Position numbers: made by a program
Part shown: piece by piece, positions 21,661 to 26,782 of the stretch
How positions within the stretch are numbered: the first letter of the stretch is position 1
Layout of the letters: each line of letters starts with the position of its first letter
Assembly (NCBI GenBank): GCA_951406725.2
Contig: OX597842.1
Coordinates: forward strand, 31,806,001 to 31,870,000
Length of the DNA: 64,000 bases
Direction: 5' to 3'
Origin: Octopus vulgaris
Taxonomy: Eukaryota

Positions 21661-24600
21661 CATCATCATCATCATCGTTTATATACATATATACAACGGG
21701 CTTCTTTCAGTTTCCGTCTACCAAATCCACTCACAAGGCATTGGTCGGCCCGGGGCTATAGCAGAAGACACTTGCCCAAGATGCCAGGCAGTGGGACTGA
21801 ACCCGGAACCATGTGGTTGGTTAGCAAGCTACTTACCACACAGCCACTCCTGCGCCTATTGGTCATAATTGGTCATATATGGACCAAATGTTCTACACAT
21901 TTTGTGTTCACACTGACCAGATCCAGCCTTTCACACCTACCCTACAATGTCATTCTGAAAAATATTGAAATCCCAAAGCTATGAGATAATCTGTGGTTAA
22001 TTGGAAACAATGCAAATAAAGAAGGATTAGATTTGAGAGAGAAATCCGAATGCTAGTGGGAAGGTGTTACAGTTCAGAGATGAAACACCTGGTTATAATT
22101 GGATACGGCCTGATGACATCGGTTCCACTTGGACAAAGTTCCATTCACTTTGTTCCTTCTCGAGCCATCATCATCATCAATGTTCGACCGTGGTCGAGAC
22201 AATGGAATTTACCATGCTACACCAGACTTCACGGTCCATCATGGCATTACGGAGGTCCTGTTGCTTGATGCCTGTATCCCTGGAGATTAGATCAGGGTAG
22301 GAGAGTGTGCGCCCTCTGGTATCGCGACCGTGGTCGAGACAATGGAATTTACCATGCTACGCCAGACTTCACGGTCCATCATGGCATTACGAGGTTGTGC
22401 TGGATGCTGTCCGAATTCATCAGGGTTGGAGAGTGTGCGCCCTCTGGTATCGCGACCGTGGTCGAGACAATGGAATTTACCCTGCTACGCCAGACTTCAC
22501 GGTCCATCATGGCATTACGGAGGTCCTGTTGCTGGATGCTTGTATCCCTGGAGATTACATCAGGGTTGGAGAGTGTGCGCCCTCTGGTATCGCGACCGTG
22601 GTCGAGACAATGGAATTTACCCTGCTACGCCAGACTTCACGGTCCATCATAGCATTACGGAGGTCCTGTTGCTGGATGCCTGTATCCCTGGAGATTACAT
22701 CAGGGTAGGAGAGTGTGCACCCTCTGGTATCGCGACCGTGGTCGAGACAATGGAATTTACCATGCTACACCAGACTTCATGGTCCATCATGGCATTACGG
22801 AGGTCCTGTTGCTGGATGCCTGTATCCCTGGAGATTAGATCAGGGTAGGAGAGTGTGCACCCTCTGGTATCGCGACCGTGGTCGAGACAATGGAATTTAC
22901 CATGCTACGCCAGACTTCACGGTCCATCATGGCATTACGGAGGTCCTGTTGCTGGATGCCTGTATCCCTGGAGATTAGATCAGGGTAGGAGAGTGTGCAC
23001 CCTCTGGTATCGCGACCGTGGTCGAGACAATGGAATTTACCATGCTACGCCAGACTTCACGGTCCATCATAGCATTACGGAGGTCCTGTTGCTGGATGCC
23101 TGTATCCCTGGAGATTACATCAGGGTAGGAGAGTGTGCACCCTCTGGTATCGCGACCGTGGTCGAGACAATGGAATTTACCATGCTTACGCCAGACTTCA
23201 CGATCCCTCATATCATTATGGAGGTCCTGTTGCTGGATGCCTGTATCCCTGGATATTTCATCAGGGTAGGAGAGTGTGCGCCCTCTGGTATCGCGACCGT
23301 GGTCGAGACAATGGAATTTACCATGCTACGCCAGACTTCACGGTCCATCATGGCATTACGGAGGTCCTGTTGCTGGATGCCTGTATCCCTGGAGATTAGA
23401 TCAGGGTAGGAGAGTGTGCGCCCTCTGGTATCGCGACCGTGGTCGAGACAATGGAATTTACCATGCTACGCCAGACTTCATGGTCCATCATGGCATTACG
23501 GAGGTCCTGTTGCTGGATGTTTGTATCCCTGGAGATTACATCAGGGTAGGAGAGTGTGCGCCCTCTGGTATCGCGACCGTGGTCGAGACAATGGAATTTA
23601 CCATGCTACACCAGACTTCACGGTCCATCATGGCATTATGGAGGTCCTGTTGCTGGATGCCTATATCCCTGGATATTACATCAGGGTAGGAGAGTGTGCA
23701 CCCTCTGGTACCGCGACCGTGGTCGAGACAATGGAATTTACCATGCTACACCAGACTTCACGGTCCATCATGGCATTACGGAGGTCCTGTTGCTGGATGC
23801 CTGTATCCCTGGAGATTAGATCAGGGTAGGAGAGTGTGCGCCCTCTGGTATCGCGACCGTGGTCGAGACAATGGAATTTACCATGCTACGCCAGACTTCA
23901 CGGTCCATCATGGCATTACGGAGGTCCTGTTGCTGGATGCCTGTATCCCTGGAGATTAGATCAGGGTAGGAGAGTGTGCGCCCTCTGGTATCGCGACCGT
24001 GGTCGAGACAATGGAATTTACCATGCTACGCCAGACTTCACGGTCCATCATAGCATTACGGAGGTCCTGTTGCTGGATGCCTGTATCCCTGGAGATTACA
24101 TCAGGGTAGGAGAGTGTGCGCCCTCTGGTATCGCGACCGTGGTCGAGACAATGGAATTTACCATGCTACGCCAGACTTCACGGTCCATCATAGCATTACG
24201 GAGGTCCTGTTGCTGGATGCCTGTATCCCTGGAGATTACATCAGGGTAGGAGAGTGTGCGCCCTCTGGTATCGCGACCGTGGTCGAGACAATGGAATTTA
24301 CCATGCTACGCCAGACTTCACGGTCCATCATGGCATTACGGAGGTCCTGTTGCTGGATGCCTGTATCCCTGGAGATTAGATCAGGGTAGGAGAGTGTGCG
24401 CCCTCTGGTATCGCGACCGTGGTCGAGACAATGGAATTTACCATGCTACGCCAGACTTCACGGTCCATCATAGCATTACGGAGGTCCTGTTGCTGGATGC
24501 CTGTATCCCTGGAGATTACATCAGGGTAGGAGAGTGTGCGCCCTCTGGTATCGCGACCGTGGTCGAGACAATGGAATTTACCATGCTACGCCAGACTTCA

Positions 24601-26782
24601 CGGTCCATCATGGCATTACGGAGGTCCTGTTGCTGGATGCCTTTGTATCCCTGGAGATTACATCAGGGTAGGAGAGTGTGCGCCCTCTGGTATCGCGACC
24701 GTGGTCGAGACAATGGAATTTACCATGCTACGCCAGACTTCACGGTCCATCATGGCATTACGGAGGTCCTGTTGCTGGATGCCTGTATCCCTGGAGATTA
24801 GATCAGGGTAGGAGAGTGTGCGCCCTCTGGTATCGCGACCGTGGTCGAGACAATGGAATTTACCATGCTACGCCAGACTTCACGGTCCATCATGGCATTA
24901 CGGAGGTCCTGTTGCTGGATGCCTGTATCCCTGGAGATTACATCAGGGTAGGAGAGTGTGCGCCCTCTGGTATCGCGACCGTGGTCGAGACAATGGAATT
25001 TACCATGCTACACCAGACTTCACGGTCCATCATGGCATTATGGAGGTCCTGTTGCTGGATGCCTATATCCCTGGATATTACATCAGGGTAGGAGAGTGTG
25101 CGCCCTCTGGTATCGCGACCGTGGTCGAGACAATGGAATTTACCATGCTACACCAGACTTCATGGTCCATCATAGCATTACGGAGGTCCTGTTGCTGGAT
25201 GCCTGTATCCCTGGAGATTACATCAGGGTAGAAGAGTGTGCGCCCTCTGGTATTGCAAGTAGATGGCTTCCAGAGGAGAAGAGTAGAAATTACCTTGTTT
25301 TCAGCTCTACAACATTGTCCAGCAAACTGGACTCTCCTACCTTTCACAAGAGATGACACAGGTGGTAGTTTCCCATATATTTGCATTTTGGTTGGATGGC
25401 GCTTCCACGAGAGATTTTGAGCTCTCATAAGGAGGCGAGTGTAGGTTCCATCCAACTGCCTCTCAAGCTTCTTTGATAACGTCCAGGTTTCTGAGCCATA
25501 GAGTAGAATTGGTTCAACTGTGGCTTTGAAAATTTCAAGTTTGAAGTCTCTACTTAGATTTGATGACCAGATCTTATGCATCGCATTACAGGCTGACCAG
25601 GCCATACCCTTTCTAGTTAGAAAATCTTTTCCATGCCTGGCTCATAAGGGCCGGTTTCCTGGTTTCTTGGCGTATAGGTTCCCCACCTGGATGGGACGCC
25701 GGTCCGTCACAGGTGAGCTGCAAGATGCAGGAGGAAAGAGTGAGAGAAAAGTTGTGGCGAAAGAGTCAGCAGAAGTTCGCCATTACCTTCTGTCAGAACC
25801 TCATGGAGCTTAGGTGTTTTCGCTCATAAACACACACATTACCCAGTCTGAGATTCGAACCTGCGATCCCTCGACCATGAGTCCGCCGCTCTAACCACTA
25901 GGCCATGTGCCTCCACAAGATGCAGGAGGAAAGAGTGAGAGAAAGCTGTGACTGTGGAGGTGCGTGGCTCAGTGGTTAGAGTGTCAGCATCATGATCGTA
26001 AGATTGTGGTTTCGATTCCTGGACCGGGCGACGTGTTGTGTTCTTGAGCAAGACACTTCATTTCACATTGCTCCAGTCCACTCAGCTGGCAAAAATGAGT
26101 AACGCTGCGATGGACTGGAATCCAGTCCAGCTTGGGAACACATACGTCACGGAAACCGGGAAACCGGGCCCATGAGCCTGGCTAGGCTTTAAAAGGGCGC
26201 ATTTATTATTAGTGGAGGCACATGGCCTAGTGGTTAGAGCAGTGAGCTCACGGTCGAGGAATTGCGGGTTCGAATCTCAGACTGGGCGATGTGTGTGCTT
26301 TGCTCAAGAACACAACGCGTCGCCCGGTCTAGGAATCGAAACCACAATCTTACGATCATGATGCTGACACTCTATAACCACTACGCCACGCGCCTCCACA
26401 TTCACTTTGGTGAGTGGAGAAAAAGCAACTTCTGGAGTTTATCAAGAACATATATACCTTAATATAAATATATCCTTTTAGGATTTAAAATGGCCAGGTC
26501 TGGCCCCTTGTACCAACCCTTCAATGTCATTCGAAGCTATGAGATAATCCATGATTGATTACTCTTTTACTTGTTTCAGTCACTTGACCGCGGCCATGCT
26601 GGAGCACCGCGTTTAGTCGAGCAAATCGCGCCCCCAGGACTTATTCTTTGTAAGCCTAGTACTTTATTCTATCGGTTTCTTTTGCTGAACCGCTAAGTTA
26701 CAGGGACGTAAACACACCAGCATCGGTTGTCAAGCGATGTTGGTGGGGACAAACACAGACACACACAAACACACACACACAC

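What the first reader, a model, noticed from the sequence alone, without database searches (positions are those of the whole stretch)
22168..25605. Satellite built from 22 tandem copies of the last 140 nt of an RTE LINE, still attached to its parent
On the minus strand the LINE body (25605 to ~25250) runs into 22 head-to-tail copies of its own terminal 140 nt and ends with one (GAT)n tail. Each junction joins ...ccacggtCG to CGataccagagg via a short cga/cg microhomology. A sibling at 28488-28791 shows the unamplified end. Two explanations: iterative, telomerase-like re-initiation or template jumping by the LINE RT (or a circular RNA template), or post-insertion tandem amplification. Either way it captures a satellite arising from a retroelement coding end.
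Basis: partly seen in the sequence, partly recalled or inferred. Interest (0 to 1): 0.7.

Follow-up and report, generated by a model that had tools for sequence, protein, structure and literature searches.

The report
LINE tail amplified into tandem array
A truncated RTE-type jumping gene carries 22 head-to-tail copies of the last 140 bases of its own coding sequence, most likely made by ordinary DNA duplication and unequal exchange after insertion, which is a tidy but not surprising example of how a satellite repeat starts.

Summary
On the minus strand a 5'-truncated RTE-like ORF fragment (about 25632 to 25254) runs into 22 head-to-tail 140-nt units (25253 to 22185). TRF gives 22.0 copies at 96% match. 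The array ends in AACATT plus one (GAT)4 tail that also supplies the stop codon. Each unit encodes the last ~45 residues of a ~1043-aa endonuclease plus reverse-transcriptase protein. An unamplified sibling lies at 28490-28796.

The RT-iteration idea is disfavoured:
- 20 of 21 internal junctions are identical, and all 21 carry a G that neither the parental boundary nor the sibling has. This fits one junction formed once and then copied.
- Variants are shared among non-adjacent units far beyond a star-like history. One transversion sits in 8 units, against a maximum of 4 in 6000 simulations.
- No ribozyme or stable RNA fold was found.

Best reading: one duplication at a 3-nt TCG microhomology, then DNA-level unequal exchange. 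The window holds many other arrays. The decisive test, other loci with the same junction, could not be run because no eukaryotic DNA collection was available. This is a known kind of feature, of modest interest.

The parts
25254..25632 (-). 5'-truncated RTE-like ORF fragment upstream of the repeated segment (C-terminal region of the endonuclease plus reverse-transcriptase protein)
   Evidence: The translations P0001 and P0123 match the C-termini of ~1040-aa proteins carrying PF03372, PF14529 and PF00078. tblastn of P0005 residues 871-1038 aligns to 25629-25126 at 78% identity, and P0124 aligns at 90%.
25114..25253 (-). Unit u01, the parental copy of the 140-nt segment. It is continuous with the ORF upstream. 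Its upstream boundary reads GCAATACC where all later junctions read GCGATACC.
22185..25113 (-). Units u02-u22, the 21 added head-to-tail copies. u21 (22322-22449) is a degenerate 128-nt unit.
   Evidence: TRF gives period 140, 22.0 copies and 96% match. Each unit hits the last ~45 residues of P0005 and P0124.
25104..25126 (-). Example of the 23-nt unit-to-unit junction. The TCG microhomology is at 25118-25116 and the non-parental G is at 25114.
   Evidence: Junction census: 20 of 21 internal junctions have this exact 23-mer, and 1 has one further A>G.
22167..22184 (-). True 3' end of the LINE: AACATT plus (GAT)4. The ORF's stop codon TGA (22179-22177) is the first repeat of the microsatellite. 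This end is present once, after the last unit.
28490..28796 (-). Sibling insertion of the same family. It is unamplified (one copy of the segment plus tail), has a different 5' truncation point and unrelated flanks.

Best explanation
This is a dead, 5'-truncated insertion of an RTE-like non-LTR retrotransposon. Its terminal 140 bp of coding sequence was tandemly amplified at the DNA level after insertion.

Step 1 (inferred): a single tandem duplication joined the TCG six bases before the microsatellite tail to a TCG 140 nt upstream. Possible routes are replication slippage, fork template switching or microhomology-mediated repair. One A>G change arose at or soon after that join.

Step 2 (supported by the variant pattern): the dimer expanded to 22 units by repeated unequal sister-chromatid or homologue exchange, replication slippage and possibly gene conversion. 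This shuffled three unit haplotypes along the array.

The array has no coding capacity in the sense frame. 140 is not a multiple of 3, and the ORF stops 12 codons into unit 2. No function is indicated. It is an incipient, locus-bound satellite in a region where local tandem duplication is common.
For: (1) Single-origin junction. All 21 internal junctions carry a G at a position where the parental boundary (25254) and the sibling both have A, and 20 of 21 are identical over 23 nt. The closest protein relative, P0124 (90% identical), has Arg-Asn at this spot, matching the sibling's CGC AAT, so the A and the upstream TCG are ancestral. In a DNA-level model every junction descends from the one junction of the first dimer, so one mutation explains all 21.

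(2) Non-star variant pattern. 10 of 21 variable sites are shared by 2 or more units (u21 left out).
- A non-CpG G>C transversion (Val>Leu, derived) is in 8 units: u04, 07, 10, 11, 14, 17, 18, 22.
- The ancestral T at column 80 survives in 7 units scattered through the array.
- u02 and u12 share 4 variants although they lie 10 units apart.
- In 6000 simulations of independent mutation (CpG weight 1, 10 or 20) no non-CpG variant reached more than 4 units. Six or more shared non-CpG sites occurred in 4% (weight 1) or 0% (weights 10, 20) of runs.

(3) No internal tails. Only one tail exists, after the last unit. This rules out repeated insertions.

(4) Nothing points to a special RNA template.
- Rfam gave 0 matches in the window at gathering score.
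- Rfam gave 0 matches in 601 bases of the array at E<=10.
- The RNA fold of the last unit plus tail has z = -0.08.

(5) Context. The same 64 kb holds many other arrays with 60-340-bp units. One is a 177-bp x3 array whose unit is a whole SINE plus its AT-rich tail plus a few further bases. That composition fits DNA-level duplication.

(6) The sibling of the same family 3 kb away is unamplified.
Against: - No orthologous or allelic copy of the locus could be examined, so 'post-insertion' is inferred and not shown.
- Later unequal exchange and gene conversion would overwrite the star-like signature of an RT-made array. The variant pattern therefore proves DNA-level turnover, not a DNA-level origin.
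- Tests for a regular higher-order period were not significant. Lag 10 is the closest (3.09 against a mean of 3.85 differences), with p = 0.039 alone and 0.23 after allowing for 11 lags. Neighbouring units are not significantly more alike (p = 0.08). A repeated 5-unit haplotype string has p = 0.11.
- 4 of the 10 shared sites are CpG sites, which can mutate in parallel.
- A bacterial RT (DRT2) makes 120-nt concatemers of 1-40 repeats by jumping on a 3-nt homology. Its junction is uniform and includes one extra base (passages). A uniform odd junction is therefore not proof against an RT origin.
- The genome-wide search for other junction-bearing loci could not be done.
Confidence: 0.6

Rival explanations
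1. Hybrid origin. The first duplication (the dimer) was made by the LINE reverse transcriptase during target-primed reverse transcription, through one microhomology-guided jump back from the upstream TCG to the TCG near the 3' end, with one misincorporated base. The dimer then expanded by DNA-level unequal exchange.
For: The 3-nt microhomology and the single odd base at the join suit an RT template switch as well as a DNA repair event. Non-LTR RTs are known to jump templates and give head-to-tail products (R2 protein, passages in PMC11371274). The expansion step rests on the same support as the best explanation.
Against: Nothing in the sequence tells this apart from a DNA-level first step. The documented R2 jumps go from the end of a full-length cDNA to the 3' end of another RNA, not between internal sites. 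No RNA structure brings the two sites together.
Confidence: 0.15
2. The array was already present in the source element. A master RTE copy had acquired the tandem array in its 3' coding end, and this locus is a 5'-truncated retrotransposed copy of that RNA. The shared variants were then inherited, not generated here.
For: It is compatible with the single tail, the uniform junction and the non-star variants. Some LINE families carry internal tandem repeats (recalled, no call).
Against: The only other copy in the window is unamplified. None of the 235 related proteins stored from two searches contains any of six pentapeptides that cross the first junction. These 235 are the listed best 120 of 186 hits and the best 120 of 241 hits, with overlaps counted once. 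All the C-termini printed for ten of them stop at or before the normal protein end, with nothing beyond it. An antisense 3-unit ORF finds nothing in the protein collection. This is weak negative evidence, because frame-broken arrays are rarely predicted as proteins. The array also breaks the ORF 2 codons before its normal stop, although only the last 2 residues are lost.
Confidence: 0.12
3. Pure RT iteration. During one insertion event the RTE reverse transcriptase re-initiated 21 times on the same 140-nt stretch of its RNA, in a telomerase-like or rolling-circle fashion, or copied a circular RNA. It then read on into the body.
For: The array is exactly in register with body and tail, and there is one tail only. 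The unit size, copy number, 3-nt homology and uniform junction resemble DRT2 rolling-circle reverse transcription: 120-nt unit, 1-40 repeats, ACA homology and one added base (passages).
Against: The variant pattern rejects 22 copies made at once with no later exchange. No ribozyme or known RNA family is present, and there is no stable fold (z = -0.08). The sibling shows the family normally ends without reiteration.
Confidence: 0.05
4. Assembly artefact: a short tandem duplication inflated by the assembler.
For: The window comes from a scaffolded assembly (100 N at 15521-15620). Tandem arrays are prone to copy-number error.
Against: Units differ by unit-specific substitutions and indels (21 variable sites, one 128-nt unit, and units of 141 and 142 nt). 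That is what a resolved array looks like, not a collapsed or stuttered one. There are no N in or beside the array.
Confidence: 0.03
5. Serial independent insertions of the same LINE into its own tail (the double-insertion model for TE-derived satellites).
For: Two insertions of this family lie within 3 kb. Double insertions are a proposed seed of TE-derived satellites (PMC5932611; search listing and start of abstract only).
Against: It would require 21 insertions with the identical truncation point. No tail or target-site duplication lies between units, and 20 of 21 junctions are identical.
Confidence: 0.01

Closest known systems
LINE-derived satellite DNAs: the common cetacean satellite from the L1 3' end, chicken HinfI/SCR1 from the CR1 3' UTR plus partial ORF2, PROsat and Pvc20 from L1 ORF2 (review PMC9659126, passages and table)
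   Same: A tandem array whose monomer is a piece of a non-LTR retrotransposon, here the 3' end of the ORF. The review discusses microhomology-mediated joining and unequal crossing-over as the mechanisms.
   Different: Those are genome-wide, often megabase-scale satellites whose parent locus is lost. This is one 3-kb array still in register with its parental element and tail. It comes from an RTE-like element, and its monomer is entirely coding.
Satellites born from tandem repeats inside LTR retrotransposons (PMC7004042; search listing and start of abstract only)
   Same: Short arrays inside or attached to the retroelement are seen as the seed stage of satellite DNA.
   Different: That work concerns LTR elements of plants, where the repeats sit in non-coding parts of many element copies. 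Here there is a single non-LTR copy and a coding segment.
Double insertion / tandem dimer model of TE-to-satellite conversion (McGurk and Barbash 2018, PMC5932611; search listing and start of abstract only)
   Same: A TE-derived dimer is the substrate that unequal exchange expands.
   Different: That model makes the dimer by two insertions. Here the units have no tails between them and one fixed junction, so the dimer was an internal duplication.
DRT2 rolling-circle reverse transcription in bacteria (bioRxiv 10.1101/2024.05.08.593200, passages)
   Same: Unit of about 120-140 nt, tens of head-to-tail copies, 3-nt homology at the jump, and a uniform junction with one base not predicted by simple joining.
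   Different: DRT2 depends on a structured non-coding RNA whose stem brings the two sites together, and its product is an in-frame, stop-free ORF. Here no structure is found, the unit breaks the frame, the odd base is a substitution and not an addition, and the variants show DNA-level history.
End-to-end template jumping by R2 protein giving head-to-tail copies (PMC11371274, passages)
   Same: A non-LTR RT that concatenates template copies.
   Different: Those jumps start at the 5' end of a complete template and land on the 3' end of another, so each copy would bring its own 3' end. Here the units lack the last 6 nt and the tail.

Membership tests
RTE-clade non-LTR retrotransposon (LINE) | A single ORF of about 1000 aa with an N-terminal apurinic-like endonuclease and a reverse transcriptase | tested here: inconclusive
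   The locus holds only the last ~170 codons. They match, at up to 83% identity over 99% of the query, the C-termini of proteins of 1021-1061 aa carrying PF03372, PF14529 and PF00078 (tblastn). The fragment itself hits only DUF6451, below the cut-off (E = 0.0011; 19.3 against 28 bits).
RTE-clade non-LTR retrotransposon (LINE) | Very short or absent 3' UTR ending in a short tandem (microsatellite) repeat and not in poly(A) | tested here: met
   The ORF ends in a TGA that is part of the (GAT)4 tail. The sibling ends the same way. [quoted passage not shown] The general rule for RTE is recalled from Malik and Eickbush 1998, which was not seen here.
RTE-clade non-LTR retrotransposon (LINE) | Phylogenetic placement of the RT domain inside the RTE clade | not tested
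   There is no RT domain at this locus. No named RTE reference was returned by any search, and the cluster look-up gave no informative names. 'RTE' therefore rests on architecture and tail type only.
TE-derived satellite / tandem array | Head-to-tail monomers homologous to part of a transposable element | tested here: met
   22 units of 140 nt. Each aligns to the last ~45 residues of RTE-like proteins.
TE-derived satellite / tandem array | Satellite status proper: long arrays and/or many loci in the genome | not testable with these tools
   The one array is 3.07 kb. No eukaryotic genome collection was open, so abundance elsewhere is unknown.
RT-made concatemer (rolling-circle or iterative reverse transcription) | All repeats copied from one template in one event, so differences between units are private | tested here: not met
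   10 of 21 variable sites are shared. One transversion is in 8 units against a maximum of 4 in 6000 simulations.
RT-made concatemer (rolling-circle or iterative reverse transcription) | A junction fully explained by the template plus a programmed jump | tested here: not met
   The junction base G at 25114 and its 20 equivalents is A at the parental boundary and in the sibling.
RT-made concatemer (rolling-circle or iterative reverse transcription) | RNA structure or a ribozyme that defines or circularises the template | tested here: not met
   Rfam gave no match. The fold z-score is -0.08.
RT-made concatemer (rolling-circle or iterative reverse transcription) | Recurrence: the same reiteration at independent insertions | not testable with these tools
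   Only one other copy lies in the window, and it is unamplified. Protein-level proxies were negative.

The most novel reading that the evidence does not exclude
The RTE reverse transcriptase itself can reiterate the last 140 nt of its template by homology-guided jumps between two TCG triplets. This would be a eukaryotic LINE counterpart of bacterial DRT2 rolling-circle reverse transcription. The array, or at least its founding multimer, would then have been laid down in a single insertion event and only later reshuffled by unequal exchange. LINE enzymes would in that case seed satellites directly.
Probability: 0.07. Interest if true: 0.75.

Novelty: new member of a known kind. Interest (0 to 1): 0.3.

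Why it matters
Satellites derived from transposable elements are well documented, but the seed stage is rarely caught with the array still in register with its parent element, its tail and an unamplified sibling nearby. This locus shows the founding junction (3-nt microhomology plus one non-parental base) and the first rounds of unit shuffling. That makes it a clean teaching case and a possible marker locus for measuring array turnover. It does not by itself change what is known about how satellites arise. It would matter more only if the same junction recurs at independent insertions, which would point to an RT-made array.

Tried and rejected
- Other arrays through the protein collection. An antisense ORF spanning three units (P0122) gave no hit. 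The sense ORF that crosses the first junction (P0123) gave 241 relatives at E<=1e-20 with query coverage of at most 93%. 0 of 235 stored proteins carry a junction-crossing pentapeptide. A looser first check gave 15 'IPEG' matches, all inside unrelated parts of the proteins. This is weak negative evidence only.
- Higher-order periodicity. Lag 10 is nominally the best but not significant after correction, and adjacency is not significant. The repeated 5-unit haplotype string has p = 0.11.
- Ribozyme or circular-RNA idea. Rfam found nothing.
- RNA structure at the LINE end. z = -0.08. The only feature is a 5-bp inverted repeat with a 2-nt spacer at the unit end, which is short enough to be chance.
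- Organism identification.
  - The protein atlas gave only eukaryotic 'hypothetical protein' clusters.
  - The cluster look-up gave no informative names.
  - Rfam found no RNA genes.
  - The SINE-like repeats look cephalopod-like to me from memory. No call tested this, so the octopus papers are used only as comparison.
- Target-site duplication. Only a possible 4-nt ATGG overlap was read by eye at both ends, and it is confounded with the tail. No empty-site copy lies in the window.
- Genes in the window. 10 long ORFs were scanned against Pfam and only a DDE_3 transposase remnant turned up.
- Not done. The genome-contig scan was not used because it holds only bacteria and archaea. Paper supplements were not opened.
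- Literature. Searches listed no report of an RTE coding-end array attached to its parent. These searches are not exhaustive.
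Full report
**What is there.** Tandem Repeats Finder reports one array at 22185-25253 with period 140, 22.0 copies, 96% matches, 1% indels and score 5670.

Read on the minus strand, an open reading frame enters from about 25632 and runs into the array. Splitting the strand on the unit-start motif gives 22 units. Of the 21 spacings, 18 are 140, one is 142, one is 141 and one is 128. After the last unit the sequence continues with AACATT and (GAT)4 (22184-22167) and then unrelated DNA.

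In the ORF's frame the last codons read Glu-His-stop, and the stop is the first TGA of the microsatellite. The element therefore has essentially no 3' UTR, and the 140-nt unit is entirely coding sequence. Because 140 is not a multiple of three, the sense frame ends 12 codons into the second unit.

**What the parent is.**
- The 166-aa translation P0001 gives only a sub-threshold Pfam hit to DUF6451.
- It matches 186 longer proteins at E<=0.001. The best reach 83% identity over 99% of the query.
- The full-length matches, at 1021-1061 aa, carry PF03372 and PF14529 (endonuclease) and PF00078 (reverse transcriptase).
- tblastn places residues 871-1038 of the 1043-aa P0005 on 25629-25126. Every unit falls on residues ~995-1039.
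- A single endonuclease-RT ORF of about 1040 aa ending in a microsatellite is the RTE layout. An octopus RTE is described in the same terms (PMC9115989, passages). The general rule is recalled from Malik and Eickbush 1998, which I did not see.
- I did not place an RT domain in a tree, so clade membership rests on architecture and tail only.
- The organism was not identified by any search.

**The sibling.** Self-BLAST finds one other copy in the window, at 28490-28796 in the same orientation. It is 95.2% identical over 290 nt, has another 5' truncation point and unrelated flanks, and carries one copy of the segment followed by its own tail. It is an independent insertion and shows the family's normal end.

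**The junction.** 20 of the 21 internal junctions are the same 23-mer, and one has one further A>G.

Comparison with the parental boundary (25266-25244) and with the sibling shows two things:
- The 3' end and the upstream site share TCG, provided the sibling's state (CGC, Arg) is ancestral. The parent now has TGC, a CpG-to-TpG change. The closest protein relative, P0124 (90% identity), has Arg-Asn there.
- The period equals the distance between the two TCGs, so the join is a plain 3-nt microhomology join.

There is one exception. Two bases after the TCG, every junction has G where the parental boundary and the sibling have A (Asn in P0124, P0003 and P0005).

If the reverse transcriptase had looped 21 times on one RNA and then read through, it would have had to write G 21 times and A once at the same template base. 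In a DNA-level history all junctions descend from the single junction of the first dimer, so one mutation accounts for all of them.

**The variants.** Leaving out the degenerate u21, 21 columns vary and 10 of them are shared by two or more units.
- Six of the ten are not at CpG sites.
- One G>C transversion (Val>Leu, derived by comparison with all relatives) is in 8 units scattered from u04 to u22.
- The ancestral T at column 80 survives in 7 scattered units.
- u02 and u12 share four variants.
- These sites define three haplotypes that nest without conflict (ancestral, then C80, then C80 plus C31) but are interspersed along the array.

I simulated independent mutation of 21 simultaneously made copies, 2000 runs at each CpG weight of 1, 10 and 20. 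No run placed a non-CpG variant in more than 4 units. Six or more shared non-CpG sites occurred in 4%, 0% and 0% of runs. The array has therefore been through duplication or exchange of already diverged units.

I could not show a regular higher-order period:
- Lag 10 is lowest (3.09 against 3.85 differences), with p = 0.039 alone and 0.23 corrected.
- Neighbouring units are not significantly more alike (p = 0.08).
- A repeated five-unit haplotype string has p = 0.11.

**RNA-side tests.** The circular-RNA or ribozyme idea finds no support.
- Rfam gave no match at gathering score in the window.
- Rfam gave none at E<=10 in 601 bases of the array.
- The last unit with its tail folds no better than shuffles (z = -0.08).
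- A 5-bp inverted repeat with a 2-nt spacer ends each unit. It is short and may be chance.

**Context.** The window is packed with arrays. They include 62 bp x 94.6, 69/137 bp x 19.4, 134 bp x 3.1, 336 bp x 1.9, 158 bp x 1.9, 184 bp x 2.6 and x 4.0, and 177 bp x 3.0.

The 177-bp unit is a whole SINE-like element with its AT-rich tail and a few more bases. That composition points to duplication of genomic DNA and not of a transcript. Local tandem duplication is thus common here, independent of the RTE enzyme. Ten long ORFs elsewhere gave only a DDE_3 transposase remnant.

As a proxy I searched the protein collection:
- The antisense three-unit ORF gave nothing.
- The sense ORF that crosses the first junction gave 241 relatives, with query coverage of at most 93%.
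- 0 of the 235 stored proteins hold any of six junction-crossing pentapeptides. The 235 are the listed best 120 of each of two searches, with overlaps counted once.

This is weak evidence, because frame-broken arrays are seldom predicted as proteins.

**Comparison with what is known.**
- LINE-derived satellites are established. Examples are the cetacean satellite from the L1 3' end, chicken HinfI from the CR1 3' UTR plus ORF2, and PROsat and Pvc20 from L1 ORF2. Microhomology-mediated joining and unequal crossing-over are the mechanisms discussed (PMC9659126, passages).
- Retroelement-internal repeats as satellite seeds (PMC7004042) and double insertions as dimer seeds (PMC5932611) were seen only as search listings with abstract starts.
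- Non-LTR RTs do jump templates and can give head-to-tail products, but from the end of one complete template to the 3' end of the next (PMC11371274, passages). That does not fit units lacking the last 6 nt and the tail.
The resemblance in scale keeps the RT reading alive, but DRT2's defining features were tested here and not met. Those features are a structured RNA, a template-explained junction and copies made at once.
- RTE insertion is thought to depend on the microsatellite for priming (PMC6007223, abstract). That bears on the tail, not on a 140-nt reiteration.
- A recent octopus repeat annotation lists active RTE families but, in the passages I saw, says nothing on such arrays (PMC13282606).

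**Verdict.** The most likely history is insertion of a 5'-truncated RTE copy, one microhomology-mediated tandem duplication of its last 140 coding bases, and expansion with shuffling by unequal exchange (confidence 0.6).

The remaining possibilities:
- A single RT template switch as the first step (0.15).
- Inheritance of the array from an array-bearing source copy (0.12).
- Full RT iteration (0.05).
- An assembly artefact (0.03).
- Serial insertions (0.01).

This is a new example of a known kind, neat but ordinary, unless the junction turns out to recur at independent insertions.

Noticed in passing
window 36870-37396: A 177-bp x 3.0 array at 97% match. Its unit is a complete SINE-like element plus its AT-rich tail plus a few further bases. 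This looks like a tandem duplication of genomic DNA and not of a transcript. More single copies of the same SINE lie at about 37530-37700, inverted at about 37780-37900, and at about 28300-28360.
   Followed up: partly
window 37953-38438 and 61211-61946: Two arrays of one 184-bp unit (x2.6 and x4.0). By eye the TRF consensus sequences are in opposite orientation. The unit looks like another tRNA-derived SINE, but Rfam reported no family at gathering score.
   Followed up: no
window 43799-45129, 46846-47269, 47453-53299: Three neighbouring arrays: 69/137 bp x 19.4, 134 bp x 3.1, and 62 bp x 94.6 (5.8 kb). By eye their consensus units share a core of about 25 nt. This looks like a complex satellite with several monomer lengths.
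   Followed up: no
window 28363-28489 (minus strand): A short element of about 125 nt directly abuts the sibling LINE's tail. It ends in a GAT-type microsatellite preceded by a motif like the LINE's own end. It may be a non-autonomous partner (SINE) of the RTE family, and it appears to be inserted in the tail of another SINE (read by eye).
   Followed up: no
window 25633-26400 (minus strand): The LINE's 5' end abuts a tRNA-like SINE region with internal direct and inverted ~100-nt repeats. A relative lies at 36567-36690 (83%). Only a possible 4-nt ATGG overlap, read by eye and confounded with the tail, could be a target-site duplication.
   Followed up: partly
window 22185-25253, each unit end (for example 25127-25116): Each unit ends in a 12-nt quasi-palindrome with 5-bp arms and a 2-nt spacer, immediately at the duplication breakpoint. 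It could be a slippage or fork-stalling hotspot, or it could be chance.
   Followed up: partly
window 815-1270 (minus strand): An ORF with a sub-threshold DDE_3 transposase match (E = 5e-6; 26.8 against 28.6 bits). This is a DNA-transposon remnant.
   Followed up: no
window 15521-15620: A run of 100 N (assembly gap), left untouched.
   Followed up: no
window 16951-21035, 38965-39622, 45697-46505, 53649-57865, 60603-63281: Unusually many long microsatellites, including (AGT)186, (GTA)155, (AT)192, (GATA)89, (GTG)171, (CCA)354 and (AAT)88. The region is extremely rich in simple repeats.
   Followed up: no
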